In this document: positions 3,385 through 63,423 of the stretch, one piece after another
How the letters are laid out: each line of letters begins with the position of its first letter
Numbering within the stretch: position 1 is the stretch's first letter
Assembly (NCBI RefSeq): GCF_963921235.1
Contig: NC_086097.1
Coordinates: forward strand, 18,602,001-18,666,000
Length of the DNA stretch: 64,000 nt
From: Mobula hypostoma
Taxonomy: Eukaryota
Reading direction: 5' to 3'
The notes under the pieces: generated by a model
Database searches by the model: none
What the model was told of the DNA's origin: nothing
What the model saw: only the letters and a program-made list of their open reading frames with translations
Made by a program: the position numbers and the translations under genes

Positions 3385-5345
3385 AATGTAATGGGCTTTA
3401 ATGACCACCACTCTGACATCCATCATCACAAAGTGCTTTGAGAGGTTGGTCTCAACACACATCAACTCCAGCCTCCTCCACAACCTCGGACCACTGTAAT
3501 GCATCTACTATCCAAATTGGTCCTCAGAGGTCACAATCTCCCTTGGTCTAAGCTAATCCTTGGAGCATGTGGGCATTAAAGACATCTATGTTTGAACATA
3601 AGACCACAGACCATAAGACTTAGGAGCAGAATTAGGCTTTGACTGTTGTTTCTTGTCTACAGCTCTGCCGTCAATATTAAGATTCCAATCAAATTCATCC
3701 CCAATCTCCTAGACCTGGACTGAGGGAGCTGAAAGCTTCAAGTTCCTACAAGTGAACATCACCAATAGCCTTTTCTGATCCAAACATGTAGACACCATGG
3801 TCAGGAAAGTGCACCATTACCTCCACTTCTTCATGACGCTGAAGAAATTTGGCATGTCCTCTTAGACCCTCACCAATACTTATTGATGCTACAAAGAAAG
3901 CATCTTATTCAGATAAATACATCACAGTTTTTTTTCTGTTTTTCCAGTGACTACAAGAACCTGCAGAGTTGTGGACACTCTTTGCACGTCACGAAAACCA
4001 ACCTCCTCTCCATGGCCTCTGTCTCTACTTCTTGCTGCCTCAGTAAAGCAGCCAGCATAATCAAAGACCCCAGATGCCTTGCATGTTCTCTCTTCTTTCC
4101 AGTCTAATTAGCCAGAAGATACAGAAGTTTGAAAACATGTACCATCAGGCTCAACTATAGCTACTATCCTGCCTCTATAAGACTTATCAAATAGTCCCTT
4201 AGCACGATATGATGGACTTTGACATTACAATCTACATTGTTTTGACTTTGCACGGTATTGTCTACCCCTGCTGCACTTTTTCTGCAACTGTAACACTTTA
4301 TCATCAGGTAGAAGGTACAGGAGCCTCAGGACTTACATCATGAGGTTCAAGAATAGTTACTATCCCTCAACCTTGAACAAAAGATGATAACTACACTCAT
4401 CTATTGAGATGTTCCCACAACCAATGATCTCACTTTAAGAACTCTTTATCTTGTTGTTTCATGCTCTCACTATTTATTGTTATTTATTTATTTGCATTTG
4501 CACAGTTTGTTGTCTTCTATGTTCTACTTGCTCTTTCATTGATCCTGTTTATAATTAATGTTCTATAGATTTGTTGAATATCCGTGCAGGAAAATGAATC
4601 TCAGGGTGTGTGTGGTGACATATTAGATAAAATTAGATTAGATTAGATTCAACTTTATTGTCATTGTGCCGAGTACAGATACAAAGCCAATGAAATGCAT
4701 TTAGCATCCGACCAGAAATGCAAAGAATAGTGTTATTTGCAAAATAACTGCAATGAAAAGTAAGTGCTACAGCACACAAATATAAAAGTACTGAGACAGT
4801 ACAATACGGATGCAATACTGCTTTGCGCTGTGATGAGAGGTTCAGCAGTGTCACAGCCTCAGGGAAGAAGCTCTTCCTGTGCCTGCTGGTGTGGGAGTGG
4901 AGGCTCCTGTAGCGCCTACCAGATGGGAGGACAGTAAAAGGTCCATGGTTAGGGTGAGATGCATCCATGATAATGCTTTTCGCCTTGCCCAGGCAGCGTT
5001 TATGGTAGATGTTCTTAATGGTGGGCAATTGGGTGCCAATAATCTGCTGGGCAGTTTTCACCACACGCTGGAGTGCTTTGCGATCTGATACGGGCCAATT
5101 GCCATACCACACTGAGATGCAGTTGGTGAGTATGCTCTCAATGGTACAGCGGTAAAAGTCCGTCAGTATCCTGGGACAGAGGTGAGCTTTCTTCATGTTC
5201 CGCAGGAAATAAAGGAAATATGTACTCTGATAATAAGTTTTACTTAGAACTTTGAACTTTATTCTGCATTCTATTACTGTTTTCAAATGTACTATCTCTG
5301 TGATGAAATGATTTATGGGGAAGGCACATAAAACAAGTTTCCCGT
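3385..5345 (+). mobile_element. Degraded Rex/Babar LINE hosting two nested Rex/Babar insertions
   Basis: Rex RT-like text ('ctgacatccatcatcacaaagtgctttgagaggttggtc'); its 3' UTR is split at a 7-bp duplication ACTTTAT (4295-4301 / 5256-5262). Confidence 0.7.
4633..5215 (-). mobile_element. Rex/Babar LINE 3' end (younger)
   Basis: ORF 'LYFLR..KKAHL.PRILTDFYRCTIESILTNCISVWYGN...LPSGRRYRSL...RHRKSFFPEAVTLLN' plus (ATCTA)n tail. Confidence 0.9.
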
Positions 5346-5439
5346 GTGTAGTCGTACTATGAATGTGCCAATGGAATCAGTGAGTAAGTTTACATGAAGG
5401 TACAAACGTGTCTGTGTCTGGGTCATGTCAACATGTCTC

Positions 5440-31069: not shown

Positions 31070-32642
31070 ATAGAAACATAGAAAACTTACAGCACAATAC
31101 AGGCCCTTCGGCCCAGAAAGTTGTGCCGAACATGTCCTTACCTTAGAAATTACTAGGCTTACCTATAGCCCTCTATTTTCCTAAGCTCCATGTACTTATC
31201 CAAAAGTTTCTTAAAAAACCCTATCGTATCCGTCTCCACCACCGTTGCCGGCAGCCCATACCACGCACTCACCACACTCTGAGTAAAAAACTTACCCCTG
31301 GCATCTCTGTACCTACTCTCCAGCAACTTAAACCTGTGTCTTCTTGTGGCAACCATTTCAGCCCTGGGAAAAAGCCTCTGACTATCCACACAATCAATGC
31401 CTCTCATCATCTTATACACCTCTATCAGGTCACCTCTCCTCCTCCGTTGCTCCAAGGAGAAAAGGCCGAGTTCACTCAACCTGACTTCATAAGGCATGCT
31501 CCTCAATCCAGGAAAAATCATTGTAAATCTCCTCTGACCCTTTCTATGGTTACAACATCCTTCCTGTAGTGAGGTGACCAGAACTGAGCACAGTACTCCA
31601 AGTGGGGTCTGATCAGGTCCTATATAGCTGCAACATTACCTCTCGGCTCCTAAGTTCAATTCCACGATTGATGAAGGCCAATGCACAGTACGCCTTCTTA
31701 ACTACAGTGTCAACCTACGCAGCTGCTTTGAGTGTCCTATGGACTCCAACCCCAAGGTCCCTCTGATCCTCCACACTGCCATTAATACTATATTCTGCCA
31801 TCATATTTGACATACCAAAATGAGCCACTTCACACTTATCTGGGTTGAACTCTACCTGCCACTTCTCAGCCCAGTTTTGCATCCTATCAGTGTCCCGCTG
31901 TAACCTCTGACAGCCCTCCACACTATCTACAACACCTCCAACCTTTGTGTCATCAGCAAACTTACCAACCCATCCCTCCACTTCCTCATCCAGGTCATTT
32001 ATAAAAATCACAAAGAGTAAGGGTCCCAGAACAGATCCTTGAGGCACACCACTGGTCACCGACCTCCATGCAGAATATGATCTGTCTACAACCACTCTTT
32101 GCCTTCTTTGGGCAAGCCAGTTCTGGATCCACAAAGCAATGTCCCCATGGATCCCATGCCTACTTACTTTCTCAATAAGCCTTGCATGGGGTACCTTATC
32201 AAATGCCTTGCTGAAATCCATATACACTACTTCTACTCTTCCTTCATCAATGTGTTTAATCTCATCCTCAAAAAATTCAATCAGGCTCGTAAGGCACAAC
32301 CTGCCCTTGACAAAGCAATGCTGACTATTTCTAATCATATTAAACTTCTCCAAATGTTCATAAATCTTGCCTCTCAGGATCTTCTCCATCAACTTACCAA
32401 CCACTAAGGTAAGACTCACTGGTCTATAATTTCCTGGGCTATCTCTACTCCCATTTTTGAATAAAGGAACAACATCCGCAACTCTCCAATCCTCTGGAAC
32501 CTCTCCCATCCCCATTGATGATGCAAAGATCATCGCCAGAGGCTCAGCAATCTCCTCCCTCACCTCCCACAGTAGCCTGGGGTATATCTCTTCCGGTCCC
32601 GGCGACTTATCCAACTTGATGCTTTCCAAAAGCTCCAGCACA
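31070..32642 (-). mobile_element. CR1 LINE, RT domain to 3' end
   Basis: 308-aa ORF with 'YMDFSKAFDKVPH', 'SGVPQGSVLGPLLFVIFINDL', 'KFADDTK'. Confidence 0.96.
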
Positions 32643-32669
32643 TGTTACCCATGTTACAAAGATAATGTG

Positions 32670-44107: not shown

Positions 44108-45800
44108 TTGAGAAAAAGGACCGCAAAGGTAGTAATCTCGGGATTACTGCCTGTGCCACGCGACAGTGAGAGTAGGAATGCGATGAGGTGGAGGATAAAT
44201 GCGTGGCTGAGGGATTGGAGCAGGGGGCAGGGATTCAAGTTTTTGGATCATTGGGACCTCTTTTGGCGCAGGCGTGACCTGTACAAAAAGGACGGGTTAC
44301 ACTTGAATCCTAGGGGGACCAATATCCTGGCAGGGAGATTAGCGGGGGCTACTGAGGTGACTTTAAACTAGAATGGTTGCGGGGTGGGAATCAAATTAAA
44401 GAGGCTAGGCGTGAGGAGGTTAGTTCACAACAGAGGGATGGGAACCAGTGCAGAGAGACAGAGGGGTGTAAAGTGAGGGTAGAAGCAAAAAGTACAAAGG
44501 AGAAAAGTAAAAGTGGCAGGCCGACAAATCCAGGGCAAGCATTAAAAAGGGCCACTTTTCAACATAATTGTATAAGGGCTAAGAGAGTTGTAAAAGAGCG
44601 CCTGAAGGCTTTATGTGTCAATGCAAGGAGCATTCGTAATAAGGTGGATGAATTGAAAGTGCAGATTGTTATTAATGATTATGATATAGTTGGGATCACA
44701 GAGACATGGCTCCAGGGTGACCAGGGATGGGAGCTCAATGTTCAGGGATATTCAATATTCAGGAGGGATAGACATGAAGGAAGGGGAGGTGGGGTGGCGT
44801 TGCTGGTTAAAGAAGAGATTAACGTAATAGAAAGGAAGGACATAAGCCGGGAAGATGTGGAATCGATATGGGTAGAGCTGCGTAACACCAAGGGGCAGAA
44901 GACGCTGGTGGGAGTTGTGTACAGGCCACCTAACAGTAGTAGTGAGGTCGGAGATGGTATTAAACAGGAAATTAGAAATGTGTGCAATAAAGGAACAGCA
45001 GTTATAATGGGTGACTTCAATCTACATGTAGACTGGGTGAACCAAATTGGTAAAGGTGCTGAGGAAGAGGATATCTTGGAATGTATGCAGGATGGTTTTT
45101 TGAACGAACATGTCGAGGAACCAACTAGAGAGCAGGCTATTCTGGACTGGGTTTTGAGCAATGAGGAAGGGTTAATTAGCGATCTTGTCGTGAGAGGCCC
45201 CTTGGGTAAGAGTGACCATAATATGGTGGAATTCTTCATTAAAATGGAGAGTGACATAGTTAATTCAGAAACAAAGGTTCTGAACTTAAAGAGGGGTAAC
45301 TTTGAAGGTATGAGACGTGAATTAGCTAAGATAGACTGGCAAATGACACTTAAAGGATTGACGGTGGATATGCAATGGCAAGCATTTAAAGGTTGCATGG
45401 ATGAACTACAACAATTGTTCATCCCAGTTTGGCAAAAGAATAAATCAAGGAAGGTAGTGCACCCGTGGCTGACAAGAGAAATTAGGGATAGTATCAATTC
45501 CAAAGAAGAAGCATACAAATTAGCCAGAGAAAGTGGCTCACCTGAGGACTGGGAGAAATTCAGAGTTCAGCAGAGGAGGACAAAGGGCTTAATTAGGAAG
45601 GGGAAAAAAGATTATGAGAGAAAACTGGCAGGGAACATAAAAACGGACTGTAAAAGCTTTTATAGATATGTAAAAAGGAAAAGACTGGTAAAGACAAATG
45701 TAGGTCTTTAAATGTAGATGATAATAAATGGCGGTGCAGGCTCGAAGGGCCGAATGGCCTACTCCTGCACCTATTTTCTATGTTTCTATGTTTCTATGTT
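44108..45800 (+). mobile_element. Young internally deleted CR1: ORF1 esterase C-terminus, ORF2 endonuclease and 3' tail, with no RT
   Basis: 44108-44371 'VVISGLLPVP...INAWLRDW...FLDHWDLFW.RRDLYKKDGLHLN' (SGNH-type ORF1); ORF2 follows; jumps to the 3' UTR near 45720. Confidence 0.92.
44377..45711 (+). CDS. CR1 ORF2 N-terminal half (APE-like endonuclease), uninterrupted 444 aa, truncated before RT
   Basis: 'NARSIRNK', 'VGITETWL', 'GVVYRPP', 'IMGDFN', 'ILDWVL', 'SDHNMV'. Confidence 0.85.
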   Translation: MRGGNQIKEARREEVSSQQRDGNQCRETEGCKVRVEAKSTKEKSKSGRPTNPGQALKRATFQHNCIRAKRVVKERLKALCVNARSIRNKVDELKVQIVINDYDIVGITETWLQGDQGWELNVQGYSIFRRDRHEGRGGGVALLVKEEINVIERKDISREDVESIWVELRNTKGQKTLVGVVYRPPNSSSEVGDGIKQEIRNVCNKGTAVIMGDFNLHVDWVNQIGKGAEEEDILECMQDGFLNEHVEEPTREQAILDWVLSNEEGLISDLVVRGPLGKSDHNMVEFFIKMESDIVNSETKVLNLKRGNFEGMRRELAKIDWQMTLKGLTVDMQWQAFKGCMDELQQLFIPVWQKNKSRKVVHPWLTREIRDSINSKEEAYKLARESGSPEDWEKFRVQQRRTKGLIRKGKKDYERKLAGNIKTDCKSFYRYVKRKRLVKTNVGL

Positions 45801-46153
45801 ATAAGGACACCTCATCTTCCCTCTGGCACACTGCAGCCTTCCAGAAGTAATACTGAATTCCCCAACTTCAAGTACTCACGTTCGCCATCTGTGTTAGAAT
45901 GGCCATTTCTGCTGTGAGTCATCCTTCTGTCACATTGACTCACAGTTTTATCCACTGGGCATGTCCCACAACCTGCTATCAGCAACACGTCACACTCCTT
46001 TAACCATTTCTGGGTTGCAGAATCGGCGTGTCCTGGGATTGATGTCGAGGGTCAAACTGGAAGTCTGGAGTGTGTGAATCTCTGTGAGTCTGCTGACGAA
46101 ATTGAAGCCCAATGCCTGAAAGCCCAAGTTCACTGGAAGCTGGAGGCTGGTGG

Positions 46154-46159
<6 letters not shown>

Positions 46160-46211
<52 letters not shown>
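46160..46211. repeat. (TG)n microsatellite
   Basis: Perfect dinucleotide run of about 26 units. Confidence 0.98.
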
Positions 46212-46212
<1 letters not shown>

Positions 46213-46429
46213 ACGCGCACGCACGCATGAATGGGACTTGTTTTTGCTGTTGTTCTGTGTTGTTCAGCTGAACATTGTGTGCATGATATGTTGTCACCAA
46301 AATGTGTGGGACACCTGGGGGCTGCTTGCCCCCATCACACCCCCCAGTGTGCTAGTTGTTAACACAAATGATGCATTTGCCAACATCAGTGTAGCATACT
46401 GCATGCCAACATCAGTGAACTTGAGACCA

Positions 46430-48815
46430 GGTATCCGGATGCTTTGCTCATTACACCTAGGGACTTTAACCAGGCCAACCTCAGAAAGGCGCTACCAGAG
46501 TTATACCAACATGTCTCCTGCCCCACTAGAGGCCCGAATATACTTGACCACTGCTACACAGCAGTCAAGGATGCCTACCGTTCCATCCCACGACCTCATT
46601 TGGAAAATCGGACCATCAGGCCGTACTTCTCCTCCCGGCTTACAAAGAGAAACTGAAGTGGGAGGTCACAGTTTCAAAAGTAGTGTCGCATTGGACGGAG
46701 GAAACGGATGAGGTCCTCGACTGCTTTGAATCGGTGAACTGGCTAGTATTCAAGGACTCGGCAGCTAACCTCGATGAGTATGCCTCGGCTGTCATGGACT
46801 TTACTTGGACATGCACGGAAGATGTGTCTCGCAAGACGATCCGGGTATTCCCTAACCGGAAACCTTGGATGAATTATGAGGTCAAGTCCCTTTTAAAGGC
46901 TAGAACTGCGGCTTTTAGGTCCGGGGATACCAGATGCTACACGGAATCCAGGTGTGAACTCCGGAAAGCCATTAAGGGCTCCAAGAGGCAATATTGAGCC
47001 AAGTTGGAAGCTCAGGCTAACCAAGGTGATGCCAGTAGAATATGACAGGGTCTAAATGAGATCACTGGGCGCAAAGAAAAGGCTGGGAGTAGCAATAACT
47101 GTGGCACTTCTCTTCCTGACGAACTTAACGTATTCTACGCAAGATTCGAACAGAAGAGGAGCGTTCCGCTCCCTCCGGATGAACCGGACCTGGTGGCATC
47201 GAGATTCACCATCACCAAGGAGGATGTTAGAAAGGCCTTCCTGAAGATAAGGGCCCAGATGGCGTCCCAGGACGGGTTCTCCGGGCCTGTGCAAGCAAGC
47301 TAGCTGGAGTGTTTGCTGACATCTTCAACTGCTCCTTGCTTCAGTCTAAGATCCCCTCATGTTTTAAGAAGGCAATGATAATCCCGGTGCCGAAGAAGAG
47401 CAAGGTGGCATGCCTGAATGACTATCGACCTGTGGCTCTGACATCAATTGCTACGAAGTGCTTCGAGAGATTGGTTATGGCACGTATCAACCACAGCCTA
47501 CCAGTCAACCTCGACGCTTTGCAATTCGCCTACCAGAGCAACAGGTCAACGGCAGATGCCATCTCTCTGGCCCTACATTCCTCCTTAGAACACCTGGGGA
47601 ATGAAGACGCATACGTAAGGCTCCTTTTCATTGACTACAGCTCTGCCTTTAATACCACCATTCCAAATAAACTGATTCCTAAGCTCCGGAACCTGGGCCT
47701 CAGCACTCAGATCTGCAGCTGGATCTCCAACTTCCTCACAGACAGGACCCAGGCTGTGAAAATAGGGGACAAGCTCTCCTCTACAATCACTCTGAGCACC
47801 GGTGCCCCACAAGGCTGTGTACTCAGCCCCCTGCTGTACTCACTGTACACCCATGATTGTGTAGCCAAGTTTCCATCAAACTCAATATATAAGTTTGCTG
47901 ATGACACAACAATCGTAGGACGTATCTCGGGTAATGATGAGTTTGAGTACGGAGAGGAAATTAAGAACCTGGTGGCATGGTGCGAAGACAATAACCTATC
48001 CCTAAAAGTCAGCAAGACGAAGGAATTGGTTGCTGACTTCAGAAGGAGTAGCGGACTGCACGACCCAATTTACATCGGTGGTATGCAAGTGGAACAGGTC
48101 AAAAGCTTTAACTTCCTCAGGGTCAATATCACAAATGACCTGACTTGGTCCAACCAAGCAGAGTCCACTGCCAAGAAGGCCCACCAGCAGCTTTACTTCC
48201 TGAGAAAACTAAAGAAATTTGGCCTGTCCACTAAAACCCTCACTAATTTTTATAGATGCACCGTAGAAAGCATTCTTCTAGGATGCATCACAACCTGGTA
48301 TGGAAGTTGTCCTGTCCAAGACCGAAAGGAGCTGCAGAAGATCGTGAACATGGCGCAGCACATCACACAAACCAATCTTCCATCCGTGGACTCACTTTAC
48401 ACCGCACGCTGTCGGAGCAGTGCTGCCAGGATAATCAAGGACACGAGCCAACTAGCCAACACACTTCTCGTCCCTCTCCCCTCCGGGAGAAGGCTCAGGA
48501 GCTTGAAGATTCATATGGCCAGATTTGGGAACAGCTTCTTTCCAACTGTGATAAGACTGCTGAACGGATCCTGACCCAGATCTGGGCCGTACCCTCCAAA
48601 TATCCGGACCTGCCTCTCGGTTTTTTTGCACTACCTTACGTACCATTTTTCTATTTTCTATTTATGATTTATAATTTAAATTTTTAATATTTACTAATTT
48701 TAACTATTTTTAATATTTTTAAAAATTTACTATTTGTAATCAAGGGAGTAAGAAGCGCAGAATCAAATATCGCTGTGATGATTGTACGCCAATTGTTTGG
48801 CGTAAATAAAGTAGA
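46430..48815 (+). mobile_element. Rex/Babar LINE (EN C-terminal part, RT and 3' UTR), young, inserted in a SINE
   Basis: 'DFNQANL...YQHVSCPTRG.NILDHCYT', 'FPNRKPWMN', 421-aa RT ORF; SINE text on both sides (about 46250-46385 and 48820-48870). Confidence 0.95.
47309..48574 (+). CDS. Rex/Babar reverse transcriptase ORF (open 421 aa; upstream frameshifted)
   Basis: '[10 protein letters not shown]', 'QFAY', '[10 protein letters not shown]', '[21 protein letters not shown]', 'KFADDTT'. Confidence 0.88.
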
Positions 48816-58917: not shown

Positions 58918-60200
58918 TTAGACGGTGAGGAGGAGGCATACAGGAGTGAGACAGATCGGCTGGGTGAGAGCTGTAGCAACAGCAACCTGGCACTCAACAT
59001 CAGTAAGACCAAGGAATTGATTGTGGACTTCCGAAAGGGGAGACTGGAAGAACACACACACACACACACACCAGTCCTCATCGAGGGGTGATCAGTGATA
59101 AGGGGGAGCAGCTTCAAGTTCCTGGATGTAAGCATCTCTGAAGATCTATCCTGGGCCCTACATACTGATGCAATTACAAAGAATGTCAGTGGCTACATTG
59201 GATTAGAAGTATAAGATTTGAAAGGTCACTGAAGACTCTAGCAAACTTCTACAAATCTACCGTGGAGAGCTTTCTGACTGCCATCTGGTATGGAGGCACC
59301 AATGCACAGGACTGGAAAAAGCTGCCAAGGATTGCTATCTTGGCCAACTGTATCTTGATCATTAGCCTCCCCACCAATGAGGACATCTTCAAAAAGTGGT
59401 GGGTGCCTCAGGAAAGCAGCATCATCTTGAAGGGCCCTATTCATCCAAAACATGTTGTCTTCTCCTTACTACTATCAACGAGGAGGTATAGGAGCCTGAA
59501 GACAGATACATCAACGAGGAGGTATAGGAGCCTGAAGACACATACATCAACGAGGAGGTATAGGACCCTGAAGACAGATACATCAACGAGGAGGTATAGG
59601 AGCCTGAAGACACACACTCATCAACGAGGAGGTATAGGAGCCTGAAGACACACTCATCAATGAGGAGGTATAGGAGCCTGAAGACACATACATCAACGAG
59701 GAGGTATAGGAGCCTGAAGACACACACTCATCAACGAGGAGGTATAGGAGCCTGAAGACACACTCAGCAATGAGGAGGTATAGGAGCCTGAAGACACACA
59801 CTCATCAATGATGGGGTATAGGAGCCTGAAGACACACACTCATCAACGAGGAGGTATAGGAGCCTGAAGACACACACTCATCAATGAGGAGGTATAGGAG
59901 CCTGAAGACACACACTCATCAATGAGGAGGTATAGGAGCCTGAAGACACACACTCATCAACGAGGAGGTATAGGAGCCTGGACACACTCATCGTTCTAGG
60001 AACAACTTTTTCACCTCTACTATCAGATTTCTGAAATGCCCATGAACCCATGGATACTGCTTCACAATTTTTACACTATTTATCTATTTTGTTTATATAT
60101 TCTGACTGTAATATATAATAATTCAAATGCACTGTACTGCTGCAAAACAACCAATTTCATAACATACCGCATGCCAGTGATAATAAACCTGATTCAGATC
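58918..60200 (+). mobile_element. Rex/Babar C-terminus and 3' UTR containing an expanded minisatellite
   Basis: 'LALNISKTKELIVDFRKG', 'ESFLTAIWYG'; ends 'gtgataataaacctgattc'. Confidence 0.85.
59474..59992 (+). repeat. Minisatellite, 14 units of 36-38 bp
   Basis: Unit 'atcaa(c/t)gaggaggtataggagcctgaagacaca(ca)ctc' and close variants. Confidence 0.97.
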
Positions 60201-60462: not shown

Positions 60463-61135
60463 CTATCAAGAAAGAGAAAGGCAGCCAAAGAATAGCAATG
60501 ATACAAACTGCAGTAAATGAAAATATGAAATAAAAACAAAAATACCACTTCCACTCAGCAGGTCCGGCTCCCCTGGAGAGGTGAGAAACTGAGTGAGATG
60601 TTTCAGATTAACAACCCTTTGTGAGAACCGGCAAAAGGAGAAAACGTGAGCTGTTGGATTCCTCTGGCAACGCTCACAACACGCTGGAGGAACTCAGCAG
60701 GTCGGGCAGCATCCGTGGAAACGATTAGTCAACGTTTCGGGCCGGAGCTCTTCATCCTGACCCTAGCTTTGTTGCTTTGGCCCCAGCATCTGCAGAGCAT
60801 TTTGTGTTTTCAAGTTCATGTTCAGTTTATTGTCAATCAGCTGTACACATGTATACAGCGAAACAAAACAATGTCCATCTGGGACCTAGGTACAAAACAT
60901 GGAACATATTTCACAGACAGCACATAAAATAATACTGACATAATAACATCAACAGATAATAAAAAAAATTTGGTAGATGTACAAGACGACATAAAGTGCA
61001 GATACGCCATGTAGTTAAATATACAGTTAGCATACATTTAAATATATAGCTAATGTATTGCTATTGATGCTGTCATAAATAATGACATAATAATGAAGTA
61101 ATAAATAAATAATGTGTACTGGGTGGTAATACTGT

Positions 61136-61697
61136 TGTTCATCCATCGTTGACGTCGATGAAAACCTCGACGCCATTATTGATGGTGTCGAGACTAGCGC
61201 GTGATTTGGATTTAAGTGAGGGAGAGTTGCGCAGCGTCGGCCTCACTCTCTCTTCCCAATTTCCATCTGGATCCGGCGGCAAGACAGAGTCCAGACGGCT
61301 GGAGATGGGACTAGGCGCAGTGGATGACCAGGACGTCTTCTGTGTCTTGTCCTGCTCTACATATTCCACGACGCTTGCAGAGACCGCCTTCTTGACCGTT
61401 GGACTTTCCATGGGTCTCGTCCGCTCAATCCGCCGGAGTCTGTCTTCATATGCTGGGATAGACAACTCCCTATCTCACCGAGGGTTTGAGACCCGTCAGC
61501 TACCCTCACTTGGTTTAGCCGGCTTGTCGAAGCCGTTGCCCGGGGTGTGGCCGCTGTCGCACGCAAACAGCTACGGGGAGCCACAGGTGACAGCTGAGTG
61601 CCAGGTGGGGACCAAAGGTGGACTAACCGCCCTGAAAAGGATGCGACATGTTCCCCCACCAGAGGTGCTACCCCTCCCTGACACCCCATATACCCCA
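61136..61697 (-). mobile_element. Young non-autonomous retroposon (~560 bp, probably RTE-related) with 11-bp TSD
   Basis: GGTAATACTGT (61125-61135) / GGTAATATTGT (61698-61708); CpG-rich; 11-bp stem-loop at 61166-61192 near the 3' end; short CAA-like tail. Confidence 0.85.
61506..61687 (-). ncRNA. HDV-like self-cleaving ribozyme (predicted)
   Basis: Minus strand in order: P1 GGGGUGU, 90-nt J1/2, P2 UCACCUGU, P3 GGC, L3 starting UCC, P3' GCC, P1' ACACCCC, GG, GCAAC, P4 GGCUU-CGAC-AAGCC, J4/2 GGCUAA, P2' ACCAAGUGA. Confidence 0.8.
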
Positions 61698-63423
61698 GGT
61701 AATATTGTAGGGTGTTCAGAAGTCTCACAGTTTAGAGGAAGAAGCTATTAACCTGCCTAACAGCCTCTGTTCTTATGCAATCAGAGATTATGTAACAGTT
61801 GGGAGGGGTCCTTAACAATGCTGAGTGCTCTGAGAATGCAGTGAATATACTGGACACCTCATCTTATCATATACTGTCCTGACCTTAACACCGCCTTGTT
61901 TTCCAGATTGAGTACGAATGGGATATAAATGTTGTAATAGTATTGACAAATAAAAAGGAAGCCATTGGCATTAGAATCTCTGTCTCTTTAACTAACCTGA
62001 AGTGTATTTAATTTGAGATGAATTGCCTGTGGCTTTAGTGTTAAGACCATAAGACATAGGAGTAGAATTAGACCATTCATCCCATCGAGCATGCTCTGCC
62101 ATTCCACTACAGTGATCTATTGTCCTTCTTAACCTCATCCACCCTCCTTTTCCCTGTGATGCCCTGACTAATCTACAACCGATCAATCTCTGCTCCAAGT
62201 ATACCCAGTGACTTGACATGCACGTTTGTCTGAGGCAACAGGTTCACCGTGCTTTGGCTTACCTCCGTTCTAAAGGGTTGTCATAGTGTTGTTCCGAATC
62301 AAGCTGTATATTTCAGGATCAACTTTATTCATCATATACATTTACATGTATTAGGAATTTGCTGTGGTGTGGAAGCTACATGCAACAAAAATCAACAACA
62401 TTCAACAATGAAAAAGAATAAAGAATTATATAAAGTAATGTTTCAGGTTAAAGTACGGATGTGGAATAAAATGTGCATAAATACTAGCATGTATTTACAA
62501 TGTAAGCAGCATTATAAATACATGCTGGCATTTATATAATTATGCACATTGGAAGATCTATGTTGAGGTGTTCAGGACATTCAAAATGAATGTCACACAA
62601 ATGCAGCAGATTTTGAAGTTATCTATTGTATTGACACAGACCTTAAAAGTGTTTTGGTGGAGTGTCATTGATTAAGGCACCGTCAGAGTTGATAAGTTGA
62701 GGAACATGTTGATACAGTCTCAAAGTAAAAACTGGTATTTCAGGAGAAGCTACCAGCAGAGGCACACCGCCATGTTTGGGTGGAAACAGGTGAAGAGAGC
62801 CATGTGTCCTCAACTTGGATATCACGAGGAGGACAAAATGGGGAGCACCAGAGTGATGGAAGGCTCAGGTGAGAATGTGAATAGTATTGTTCAGTTAAAA
62901 AGAGGCCGATGCTTATTGTCTTTTTTACAATGCTGCATCAGATCCTGAGTAACAATAATTTTCCTCTCCTTTACACTTGTGCACTGAAGAATGGCAATAC
63001 ACAATCTTGAACCTTAAAGCAACACACATAAATTTCTGGAGGAGCTCTGCAGCTTAGGCAGCATCTATGGAAATGAGTAAACGGCTGACGCTTTGGGTGG
63101 AGACTCTTCTTTGGACCTTGAATCTTAAATCTTGAATGCTGAGAGTGAAATTCCAAGAGCGGTAGCCGTGCTGGAAACAGTATTGTGACTCAGGCAAAAA
63201 GAAAAATATGATTTGAAAGCAGTTGATGATTACTTGTGCAAAGAAGAGACAGACAATGAGAAAAAAAATGAGAAAATTTAAAGAGAACATGGACTGTGAT
63301 TTCTGTCGTTTAGTTACCTGCATCTTCTCAAACACACAATCTACTGTTAAAACAGGAAAGAGGGTAGGAACACCACCTTCTTCTCAAGAGCATTTGGGGT
63401 CATGCCATAAATTCTGGTCTTAC

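What the first reader, a model, noticed from the sequence alone, without database searches (positions are those of the whole stretch)
61506..61687. Complete HDV-like ribozyme fold at the 5' end of a young non-coding retroposon
Seen in sequence (minus strand): every element of the nested double pseudoknot is present in the correct order. P1 is GGGGUGU (61687-61681) with ACACCCC (61548-61542). P2 is UCACCUGU (61590-61583) with ACCAAGUGA (61514-61506; one mismatch, one bulge). P3 is GGC/GCC. L3 begins UCC and can form P1.1 with the GG at 61541-61540. P4 is GGCUU-CGAC-AAGCC. J4/2 is GGCUAA, as in antigenomic HDV, placing the putative catalytic C at 61518. Two unusual insertions: a structured 90-nt J1/2 (GAGG/CCUC and GGUGGGG/CCCCACC stems) and a GCUGU/ACAGC hairpin inside L3. 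The predicted cleavage site lies only 10 nt inside the TSD boundary. Established: HDV-like ribozymes process the 5' ends of several non-LTR retrotransposons, including R2, RTE and L1Tc/ingi. Inference: this is a promoter-less, ribozyme-headed SINE-like family that cuts itself out of host read-through transcripts and could truncate any host pre-mRNA on the minus strand.
Basis: partly seen in the sequence, partly recalled or inferred. Interest (0 to 1): 0.9.

Follow-up and report, generated by a model that had tools for sequence, protein, structure and literature searches.

The report
Ribozyme-headed short retroposon family
A 565-base mobile element found in thousands of copies starts with an RNA fold that closely matches the self-cutting hepatitis-delta-type ribozyme, which probably trims the element's RNA to its exact first base.

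Summary
The stretch is the 5' head of one copy (61696-61133) of a young, non-coding, LINE-type retroposon ("F1"). F1 has target-site duplications, an (AAC)n tail, over 4040 first-look candidates and 1025-1697 exact-pattern copies.

An older sister family ("F2", 1917 pattern matches) carries the same head. The ribozyme core is the most conserved part of the element. F1/F2 differences in P4 and in the J1/2 domain are partly compensatory.

Three corrections:
P1 is therefore most likely the first GGGGURU heptamer.
- The second heptamer forms the base of a stable J1/2 domain.
- The window copy carries four helix-weakening substitutions.

Rfam does not recognise the fold, and no cleavage or RNA data exist.

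Verdict: probably a real HDV-like 5'-processing ribozyme, confidence about 0.65. The kind is known. The variant is new in having a hairpin at the L3/P3 junction.

The parts
61133..61696 (-). One copy of the F1 retroposon (about 564 nt): ribozyme-like head, non-coding body, 3' inverted repeats and an (AAC)n-type tail.
   Evidence: 40 of 40 scored genome matches are full length at 95-96% identity, out of 4040 first-look candidates; ends defined on 30 copies; this copy differs from the majority at 21 of 560 positions.
61698..61708 (-). Target-site duplication, 5' copy (ACAATATTACC). T61697 lies between it and the element.
   Evidence: matches 61135-61125 in 10 of 11 positions.
61125..61135 (-). 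Target-site duplication, 3' copy. It overlaps the last AAC of the tail, so the exact 3' end is ambiguous by about 3 nt.
61690..61696 (-). Preferred P1 5' strand: GGGGUAU here, GGGGUGU in the family majority. The proposed cleavage is 5' of G61696, which is the first base of the element.
   Evidence: copy 5' ends cluster here (1025 copies with GGG intact); pairs 1-7 with 167-173. A61691 gives an A.C mismatch, a variant seen in 15 of the 100 listed copies.
61681..61687 (-). In both J1/2 folds considered it is paired inside the J1/2 domain.
   Evidence: Few copies start here.
61596..61686 (-). J1/2 peripheral domain (about 91 nt). It is closed by GGGUGUCAGG (61686-61677) pairing with CCUGGCACUC (61605-61596). 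The linkers are AUG (61689-61687) and A61595.
   Evidence: MFE fold. F1 -45.8 kcal/mol, and F2's own MFE (-45.4) has the same architecture; z = -2.2 for the window copy and -2.7 for L004; compensatory F1/F2 changes at column pairs 42-77, 47-72 and 55-70.
61584..61594 (-). P2 5' strand, extended: GCU(G)UCACCUG. G61591 is C in the majority.
   Evidence: (columns 105-115 with 203-213).
61502..61512 (-). P2 3' strand, extended: CA(A)GUGAGGGU. A61510 is G in the majority.
61580..61582 (-). P3 5' strand (GGC).
61572..61579 (-). L3 (UCCCCGUA). C61578 and C61577 can pair with G61540 and G61541 to form P1.1. Positions 4-5 are CC in F1 and AA in F2.
61553..61571 (-). Extra hairpin between L3 and the P3 3' strand: a 5-bp stem and a 9-nt loop containing the palindrome GCAUGC (GCGUGC in this copy). 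It is identical in the F1 and F2 majorities.
   Evidence: (98.3% of cells paired).
61549..61551 (-). P3 3' strand (GCC).
61542..61548 (-). P1 3' strand (ACACCCC), followed by G61541 and G61540 (P1.1).
61520..61535 (-). P4: CGGCUU-CGAC-AAGCCG.
   Evidence: its second pair is G-C in F1 and C-G (or its CpG-decayed forms) in F2, and its fifth pair is U-A in F1 and U.G in F2.
61513..61519 (-). J4/2 (GCUAAAC) with the candidate catalytic C61518.
   Evidence: aligned to the GGCUAA of the Rfam RF02682 consensus. Invariant between the F1 and F2 majorities.
61153..61193 (-). 3' inverted repeats ahead of the tail, the likely reverse-transcriptase recognition region.
   Evidence: self reverse-complement match at element positions 505-531; alignment. 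The function is inferred.

Best explanation
The stretch is the head of a non-autonomous, LINE-dependent retroposon family. I call the young family F1 and an older sister family F2.

Its first roughly 195 nt fold into a large HDV-like self-cleaving ribozyme. P1 is the first GGGGURU heptamer (61696-61690) paired with ACACCCC (61548-61542). Cleavage 5' of G61696 would free the element's RNA from any longer transcript and create the exact 5' end that is copied into new insertions.

The second heptamer is not a spare P1. It forms the base of a stable, roughly 91-nt J1/2 domain joined by 3-nt and 1-nt linkers to P1 and to an 11-bp P2. This is the 'pinch' layout that activates large HDV-like ribozymes. 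An extra conserved hairpin sits between L3 and the P3 3' strand.

Shown: the retroposon family and its ends, the fold in the sequence, its conservation, and the partial covariation. Inferred: self-cleavage, its site, and dependence on read-through transcription.
For: 1. Retroposon.
- 40 of 40 scored matches are full length at 95-96% identity.
- Target-site duplications occur in 28 of 30 copies, and copies carry an (AAC)n tail.
- Pattern counts are 1697 for the tail and 1025 for the head, with control counts of 0.

2. Fold.
- All helices and core letters are present.
- The family majority passes a strict descriptor that hits random sequence 6 times in 81.5 Mb.
- One search aligns GGCAAC-P4-GGCUAA to the Rfam HDV-F-prausnitzii consensus, which also pairs its first G with C.
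- The motif C-UCCNCGU resembles the most conserved R2 ribozyme motif, CCUCCUCGUGG (Kojima 2016, passage seen).

3. The 5' end coincides with G1 of the first heptamer.
- The target-site duplication ends within -1 to +2 of that G in 17 of 28 copies, and 3-8 filler nt lie between in the other 11.
- 1025 copies keep GGG and 163 do not. Most of the 100 listed among those 163 are nibbled by a few nt, and only about 13 of the 100 could start at the second heptamer.

4. Selection.
- F1 versus F2 majority identity is 10/10 in P1 plus linker and 84/94 in the core. Three of the ten core differences are CpG decay.
- Identity is 73/92 in J1/2, 72% over positions 198-380, and 48% then 24% further on.

5. 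Covariation (35 sequences).
- 92.6% of cells are paired, against 33-48% when the partners are slid.
- 37 cells have both sides changed, against 15.5 +/- 2.9 in shuffles (0 of 500 reach it).
- Column pairs: 42-77 GC to AU, 47-72 AU to GC, 55-70 CG to UA, and P4 181-194 GC to CG/UA.

6. J1/2 domain.
- F1 folds at -45.8 kcal/mol, and F2's independent MFE (-45.4) has the same architecture.
- z = -2.2 and -2.7 against shuffles.
- Webb et al. 2016 (Results read) show that a structured J1/2, short linkers and an extended P2 accelerate such ribozymes.
- Eickbush et al. 2013 (sections read) report J1/2 of 23 to more than 700 nt, duplicated P1 sites, and mismatches at the top of P1 in a quarter of R2 ribozymes.

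7. No Pol III head: no tRNA, no Rfam family at gathering score, and a TTTT run at 61638-61635.
Against: - No Rfam HDV-type model reaches its gathering score. The best match is 14.3 bits with E = 8.9 over part of the core. There was none at E <= 10 on four other copies.
- P1, P2, P3 and the L3 hairpin do not differ between the F1 and F2 majorities. The catalytic core therefore has conservation but no covariation. All clear compensatory changes lie in J1/2 and P4, and they amount to only about four events between two lineages.
- Three F1/F2-variable pairs are broken in F2: 43-76, 60-65 and 19-96. The last is rescued only by a register shift.
- I found no described HDV-like ribozyme with a hairpin inserted between L3 and P3'. 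It might be incompatible with catalysis.
- G1 pairs with C rather than the usual U.
- Two extra bases, or a bulged C, lie between J4/2 and P2'.
- About 15 of the 100 listed copies, including the window copy, have an A.C mismatch in the preferred P1.
- Nested-only folding of the whole head and of the core is no better than shuffles: z = +0.37 and +0.61.
- The loose descriptor needed for the window copy expects 0.57 chance hits per window.
- A transcription start at G61696 would give the same 5' ends.
Confidence: 0.65

Rival explanations
1. The head is a conserved, structured RNA or DNA module with another job, such as an internal promoter, a binding site for the partner LINE's protein, or RNA stability. 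It does not self-cleave. The 5' end at G61696 is a transcription start, and the likeness to HDV-type ribozymes is a relic or a coincidence.
For: - The core helices are invariant, so conservation alone cannot tell a ribozyme from another constrained element.
- No Rfam hit.
- The unusual L3/P3 hairpin and the G1-C pair.
- A subfamily with a mismatched P1 still amplified.
- L1Tc's first 77 nt are both a promoter and a ribozyme (abstract of PMC3383444 in the listing), so promoter functions in such heads are known.
Against: - The complete order of helices is present, together with UCC...G in L3, GG for P1.1 and C-U-A-A in J4/2. This passes a strict descriptor that is rare in random sequence.
- P1 begins exactly at the element's first base.
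- There is no tRNA, 7SL or 5S likeness.
- F1 has a TTTT run inside the head.
- The J1/2 layout matches the known activating design.
Confidence: 0.22
2. P1 is the second heptamer, cleavage is 5' of G61687, and the nine bases upstream are a leader.
For: - In the window copy the second heptamer pairs perfectly with ACACCCC, while the first has an A.C mismatch.
- The second heptamer is intact in all 30 aligned copies.
- My descriptor accepts both registers.
- Eickbush et al. 2013 (section read) describe cleavage at either of two duplicated P1 sites.
Against: - RNA cut at G61687 would give copies lacking GGGGURUAU. Instead 1025 copies keep it, and at most about 13 of the 100 listed copies without the first GGG could start there.
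- In both J1/2 folds the second heptamer is paired inside J1/2.
- Forcing P1 onto the second heptamer costs about 7 kcal/mol in nested folding: -72.2 against -79.3.
Confidence: 0.06
3. Chance: a G/C-rich repeat that happens to satisfy a permissive pseudoknot descriptor.
For: - The loose descriptor gives 0.57 expected hits per 128 kb.
- Folding energy of the whole head is not better than shuffles.
- The strict rate scales to several hundred expected hits in a genome of this size (my extrapolation).
Against: - The strict descriptor is passed by the family majority, at 0.009 expected per window.
- P1 starts at base 1 of the element.
- The core is the best conserved part between two families that are about 70-75% alike overall.
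- There are compensatory changes in P4 and J1/2.
- The same majority letters are seen in contigs of three other coded organisms.
Confidence: 0.05

Closest known systems
R2 retrotransposon 5' HDV-like ribozymes (Eickbush & Eickbush 2010; Eickbush, Burke & Eickbush 2013, PMC3774820; sections read)
   Same: - A ribozyme at the very 5' end of a non-LTR element that frees it from a co-transcript.
- P1 of 6-7 bp, a long J1/2 (23 to more than 700 nt) and a variable P4.
- An L3 of the UCCNCGU type.
- Duplicated P1 sites are discussed.
- Variable 5' junctions where cleavage is at the element's end.
   Different: - R2 is autonomous and inserts in 28S rDNA. This element is short, non-coding and dispersed, with target-site duplications.
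- It has an extra hairpin between L3 and P3'.
- No partner LINE was identified.
Large HDV-like ribozymes of the drz-Agam-2 type (Webb et al. 2016, PMC4908430; abstract and Results read)
   Same: A structured J1/2 (P1.2) domain, short single-stranded linkers and an extended P2 (11 bp here, 12 bp there).
   Different: - A different host (Agam-2 is the paper's name for mosquito ribozymes; the host is recalled).
- Here the base of the J1/2 domain is built from a repeat of the P1 heptamer.
- Activity here is untested.
L1Tc/NARTc L1TcRz and R2 SIDEs, the non-autonomous elements that carry their LINE's HDV-like ribozyme (PMC3383444, PMC3185411 and PMC3414825; abstracts only, in the listing)
   Same: Non-autonomous, ribozyme-headed non-LTR retroposons.
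   Different: - Those share their ends with a known LINE in the same genome. Here no LINE with the same head or tail was found.
- L1TcRz is 77 nt and doubles as a promoter.
HDV genomic and antigenomic ribozymes, the CPEB3 ribozyme, and Rfam RF02682 (HDV-F-prausnitzii)
   Same: - The nested double-pseudoknot order.
- The GGCAAC ... GGCUAA core letters aligned to RF02682.
- G1 paired with C, as in that consensus.
   Different: - About 195 nt instead of about 70-90.
- A hairpin inserted at the L3/P3' junction.
- It does not reach any Rfam threshold.
Other ribozyme-bearing short retroposons: hammerhead SINE-like elements of Schistosoma and twister variants in schistosome LINEs (review PMC6765202, passages; PMC8501958, abstract in the listing)
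   Same: A self-cleaving RNA used to process a retroposon transcript.
   Different: A different ribozyme class and a different position logic.

Membership tests
HDV-like self-cleaving ribozymes | Nested double pseudoknot with strands in the order P1-P2-P3-L3-P3'-P1'-(P1.1)-P4-J4/2-P2'. | tested here: met
   P1 7 bp, P2 7 bp (11 bp extended), P3 3 bp, P4 6 bp, and P1.1 possible with 2 bp.
HDV-like self-cleaving ribozymes | Cleavage 5' of the first nucleotide of P1 (a G). | not testable with these tools
   The sequence offers a G at 61696 and at 61687. Copy 5' ends fit 61696. No cleavage assay was possible and no RNA reads were available.
HDV-like self-cleaving ribozymes | L3 with a U and two C's (P1.1) plus a conserved G. 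The G is highly conserved and was shown important in Nasonia R2. | tested here: met
   UCCCCGUA in F1 and UCCAAGUA in F2. U, CC and G are kept, while positions 4-5 vary.
HDV-like self-cleaving ribozymes | Catalytic C in J4/2, just before P2'. | tested here: inconclusive
   C61518 in GGCUAA is present and invariant between the family majorities. There are 2 extra nt, or a bulged C, before P2'. Catalysis is untested.
HDV-like self-cleaving ribozymes | A short closed L3 (about 7-8 nt) directly followed by P3'. | tested here: not met
   A 19-nt hairpin plus one G lie between L3 and P3' (61571-61552). It is conserved in F1 and F2.
HDV-like self-cleaving ribozymes | Recognition by curated covariance models (Rfam HDV_ribozyme, CPEB3, drz-Agam, HDV-F-prausnitzii). 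| tested here: not met
   0 matches at gathering score. The best is RF02682 at 14.3 bits against a gathering score of 44, E = 8.9. None at E <= 10 on L004, L021, L080 or L093.
HDV-like self-cleaving ribozymes | Covariation supporting the helices. | tested here: inconclusive
   Compensatory changes occur in P4 and J1/2 only. P1, P2, P3 and the hairpin are invariant between F1 and F2.
Non-LTR (LINE-dependent) non-autonomous retroposon | Dispersed copies with target-site duplications, a defined 3' end with a simple-repeat tail, and 5' truncation or filler. | tested here: met
Non-LTR (LINE-dependent) non-autonomous retroposon | No protein-coding capacity of its own. | tested here: met
   The longest open stretches in the majority are 112-113 aa, in two frames. 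One window open frame over the element, the plus-strand (antisense) 61113-61751, was scanned and had no Pfam match. The sense-strand frames were not scanned.
Canonical SINE (Pol III head from tRNA, 7SL or 5S) | A head derived from tRNA, 7SL or 5S, with an internal Pol III promoter. | tested here: not met
   No tRNA by ARAGORN. No Rfam family at gathering score. A TTTT run lies at 61638-61635.
SIDE / internally deleted LINE | A LINE in the same genome that shares the 5' head and the 3' end. | tested here: inconclusive
   The most abundant young LINE (top 150 RVT_1 hits) shares neither end. Patterns for the ribozyme 3' end or the tail followed by foreign sequence gave 6 hits, and 130 hits that are F1 deletion variants. 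332,531 RT candidates were not examined.

The most novel reading that the evidence does not exclude
This would be a new structural class of HDV-like ribozyme: a three-way junction with a conserved hairpin inserted at the L3/P3' junction. The palindromic GCAUGC loop of that hairpin would dock a partner, either a second ribozyme RNA or the partner LINE's protein.

Its 5' G-tracts would form a switch. These are two identical P1 heptamers plus GGG-A-GGGG, together a canonical G-quadruplex motif at 61696-61671. The switch would decide whether P1 forms, so self-cleavage, and hence retroposition, would be gated rather than constitutive.
Probability: 0.12. Interest if true: 0.8.

Novelty: new variant of a known kind. 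Interest (0 to 1): 0.58.

Why it matters
If it cleaves, this is a recently active retroposon family, with copies only about 2% from their majority. It has thousands of copies in a 3.5-Gb animal genome, and related contigs occur in at least four other coded organisms.

Its propagation would depend on an HDV-like ribozyme rather than on a Pol III promoter. That would give a natural test of how much insertion the catalytic L3 region tolerates. It would also be a second natural example of the J1/2 'pinch' design.

Every intact sense-strand copy inside a gene would be a potential site of transcript self-scission. Finally, the family shows that Rfam models miss such expanded HDV-like ribozymes, so their number in large genomes may be underestimated.

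Tried and rejected
- **RNA evidence.** The look-up of sequencing runs listed no RNA holder. The four runs laid are contigs only, so starts, ends and expression could not be read. Nothing follows about expression.
- **Partner LINE.**
  - The RVT_1 search returned one very young 5.8-kb LINE in all 150 scored hits. Neither of its ends resembles F1.
  - The LINE pieces in the window do not resemble F1 either.
  - A pattern for the ribozyme 3' end followed by non-F1 letters gave 6 hits.
  - A tail pattern with non-F1 letters upstream gave 130 hits, all F1 copies with a 2-nt deletion.
  - The partner was not found.
- **Families with an altered P1'.** The pattern gave only 9 scattered hits, so no such family is visible in this genome. 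Contigs of another organism (X9) hint at variants, but I could not fetch them.
- **Rfam.** No usable hit.
- **RNAalifold on the 35-sequence alignment.** It proposed a different J1/2 fold in which 7 one-sided changes keep pairing. I rejected it as the main model because it is far less stable (-19.5 and -17.8 against -45.8 and -45.4 kcal/mol). Transitions opposite G or U keep pairing trivially. It did not predict P2 or P4, probably because of the decayed F2 rows.
F2 changes two G's to A without any change in the partner.
- **CpG restoration.** My first rule for the F2 majority was too liberal. Only the sites with mixed TG/CA/CG counts were kept.
- **Earlier notes of this scan.** Nothing relevant.
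- **Ruminski et al. 2011.** Not held. What I say of it rests on the review passages.
Full report
**What is in the sequence**

- GGGGUGU 61687-61681 with ACACCCC 61548-61542.
- UCACCUGU 61590-61583 with ACCAAGUGA 61514-61506, with a C.A mismatch at 61510.
- GGC 61582-61580 with GCC 61551-61549.
- L3 starting UCC.
- GG at 61541-61540.
- P4 GGCUU-CGAC-AAGCC.
- GGCUAA with C61518.
- A GCUGU/ACAGC hairpin after L3.

Rfam finds nothing at gathering score in the whole window. In E-value mode the only related match is a partial one to HDV-F-prausnitzii (14.3 bits, E = 8.9). It aligns the P1 3' strand, GGCAAC, P4 and GGCUAA. ARAGORN finds no tRNA in the region.

**It is a retroposon family**

The window lies in a 3.48-Gb assembly of 200 contigs.
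- A search with 61130-61700 gave 4040 first-look candidates. All 40 scored are full length at 95-96% identity.
- An alignment of 30 copies with flanks shows sharp ends. The 5' end is at GGGG (61696 here). The 3' end reads ...GAUGGACGAAC followed by a variable (AAC)n run, with no poly(A).
- Target-site duplications of 6-14 nt were found in 28 of 30 copies.
- The copies differ from their majority by 1.1-3.8% (mean 1.8%). The window copy is the most diverged of the 30, at 21 of 560 positions. These 30 are the copies most like the window copy, so they are not a random sample.
- Whole-genome pattern counts: 1697 for a 33-nt tail motif with up to 3 mismatches (control 0), and 1025 for GGG + 6N + 24 exact head bases (control 0).
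- The majority has open stretches of at most 113 aa, in two frames. The only open frame over the element that was scanned, the plus-strand (antisense) 61113-61751, has no Pfam match.

I call this family F1.

**A sister family**

Loose ends in contigs of other organisms pointed to relatives.
- A 20-nt motif from one of them occurs 1917 times in this genome with up to 1 mismatch (control 1).
- These copies form an older family, F2: about 530 nt, with copies 70-78% alike.
- F2 is homologous to F1 over its whole length. It starts with the same GGGGUGUAUGGGGUGUC and ends in a related ...GACGGACAAC(CAC)n tail.
- I fetched 20 more small F2 head regions and aligned 24 F1 and 11 F2 heads (alignment A1). 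Six of the 30 F1 copies with incomplete or altered first bases were left out, as were the partial F2 heads.

**Where the RNA starts**

- The target-site duplication ends within -1 to +2 of the first G of GGGG in 17 of 28 copies. In the other 11, 3-8 filler bases lie between.
- Genome-wide, 1025 copies have GGG at the first three positions and 163 have no G at any of them.
- Most of the 100 listed among those 163 still carry part of ...GURUAU, so their 5' ends are nibbled by a few bases. By my reading of the list, 13 show no trace of it and could start at the second heptamer.
- In the family majority the first heptamer is GGGGUGU, identical to the second, and pairs perfectly with ACACCCC. The window copy belongs to a minority with GGGGUAU (15 of the 100 copies listed).

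**The refined fold**

Nested-only folding of the F1 majority gives:
- P4.
- A P2 extended to 11 bp (GCUCUCACCUG with CAGGUGAGGGU).
- A rod-like J1/2 domain whose closing 10-bp helix is GGGUGUCAGG (the second heptamer) with CCUGGCACUC.
- This leaves 3 nt between P1 and the domain, and 1 nt between the domain and P2.

Energies and controls:
- Enforcing P2, P3, the hairpin and P4 costs 1.6 kcal/mol (-84.1 against -85.7), before P1 and P1.1, which nested folding cannot count.
- Putting P1 on the first heptamer gives -79.3. Putting it on the second gives -72.2.
- The J1/2 domain alone folds at -45.8 kcal/mol in F1.
- The F2 majority, folded on its own, gives the same architecture at -45.4, despite 19 differences in 92 columns.
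- Against 200 shuffles the domain has z = -2.2 for the window copy (4 shuffles as good) and -2.7 for L004 (2 as good).
- The whole head (z = +0.37) and the core without pseudoknots (z = +0.61) are not special.
- RNAalifold on A1 proposes another J1/2 fold, but it is far weaker (-19.5 and -17.8).
- In both folds the second heptamer is paired inside J1/2.

This layout of a structured J1/2, short linkers and a long P2 is what Webb et al. [quoted passage not shown] Eickbush et al. 2013 describe R2 ribozymes with J1/2 from 23 to over 700 nt, duplicated P1 sites, and mismatches at the top of P1 in about a quarter of elements.

**Conservation and covariation**

F1 against F2 majority identity:

| Region | Identity |
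|---|---|
| P1 + linker | 10/10 |
| Core, P2 to P2' | 84/94 (3 of the 10 differences are CpG decay in F2) |
| J1/2 | 73/92 |
| Positions 198-380 | 72% |
| Positions 381-470 | 48% |
| Positions 471-562 | 24% |

The core differences fall in L3 positions 4-5 (CC against AA), in the joiner after P1.1, and in P4.

Counting my full model, pseudoknots included, on A1:
- 92.6% of 2272 cells are paired, against 33-48% with slid partners.
- 37 cells have both sides changed, against 15.5 +/- 2.9 in shuffles (0 of 500 reach it).
- The number of pairs with such a change (8) is not above shuffles (194 of 500 reach it).
- Family-level compensations: columns 42-77 GC to AU (9 rows), 47-72 AU to GC (9 rows), 55-70 CG to UA (11 rows), and P4 181-194 GC to CG or UA (4 rows, the rest CpG-decayed).
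- One-sided but pairing-compatible changes: 46-73, 16-98 and 184-191.
- Broken in F2: 43-76, 60-65 and 19-96. The last is replaced by a register shift through an inserted C.

These are few events between two lineages. P1, P2, P3 and the L3 hairpin do not vary at all between the majorities. The evidence for the core is therefore conservation, not covariation.

**Chance**

My descriptor finds only this locus in the window. In 81.5 Mb of random sequence:
- The strict form, which the family majority passes, hit 6 times.
- The one-mismatch form, which the window copy needs, hit 362 times.

The single copy is not significant by fold alone. The family majority, with P1 starting at base 1 of the element, is.

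**This copy**

Against the majority, the window copy has five substitutions in the head:

| Position | Element affected |
|---|---|
| A61691 | P1, giving A.C |
| A61642 | A J1/2 helix |
| G61591 | Extended P2 |
| G61562 | Hairpin loop |
| A61510 | P2, giving C.A |

In contigs of three other organisms the majority letters at 61510, 61591 and 61562 make up over 99% of depth in X19. Those three are therefore private decay. This copy is probably a weakened ribozyme.

**Other organisms**

The four runs laid (coded organisms A, B, C and I) all hold the family or relatives, at very high depth in X19. These are contigs, so nothing can be said about RNA ends or expression.

**What is known**

Review passages state that:
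- HDV-like ribozymes sit in R2, L1Tc, baggins and RTE elements.
- Hundreds of intergenic copies with conserved downstream and variable upstream sequence were seen in earlier searches.

The kind is therefore known. In four literature searches I found no description of this family or of a helix inserted at the L3/P3' junction. That is a limited search, not proof of absence. Ruminski et al. 2011 was not available.

**Verdict**

This is most likely a functional HDV-like 5'-processing ribozyme heading a non-autonomous retroposon, confidence about 0.65. The cleavage site is 5' of G61696. It is a new structural variant of a known kind.

The partner LINE, the promoter question and cleavage itself remain open.

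Noticed in passing
window 61671-61696 (minus strand): The first 26 nt of the element read GGGG-5nt-GGGG-5nt-GGG-A-GGGG. This is a canonical four-tract G-quadruplex motif, also kept in F2. It would compete with P1 and the J1/2 closing helix.
   Followed up: no
window 61558-61566 (minus strand): In the family majority the 9-nt loop of the extra hairpin contains the palindrome GCAUGC (GCGUGC in this copy). It is identical in F1 and F2, which suggests a loop-loop or protein contact.
   Followed up: no
window 59474-59992: A tandem array of a 38-bp unit, 13.9 copies, 92% matches, about 1.1 kb from the element.
   Followed up: no
window 44356-48574 (+), 31715-32644 (-), 4633-5376 (-): LINE pieces with endonuclease, RVT_1 and ALKBH8_N-type motifs. 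There are also many short 8-mer arrays of the CATAGAAA/TAGAAACA type that look like CR1-type LINE tails. None is related to F1.
   Followed up: partly
L043-L074 (G000, several contigs): A very young 5.8-kb LINE family. Its copies are 97-99% alike, it has an open frame of 1264 aa, and it fills all 150 top RVT_1 hits out of 332,531 candidates.
   Followed up: partly
F1 majority, element positions about 225-562: An open frame of 113 aa runs through the 3' end into the (AAC)n tail without a stop. A second frame is open for 112 aa, so this is probably compositional.
   Followed up: partly
G000, 130 places: An F1 subfamily with a 2-nt deletion just upstream of the tail motif (GACGU-ACGAUGG).
   Followed up: no
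L081 and L082 (G000 C1, 16 kb apart): Two nearly identical old F2 copies with the same flanks, probably a local segmental duplication.
   Followed up: no
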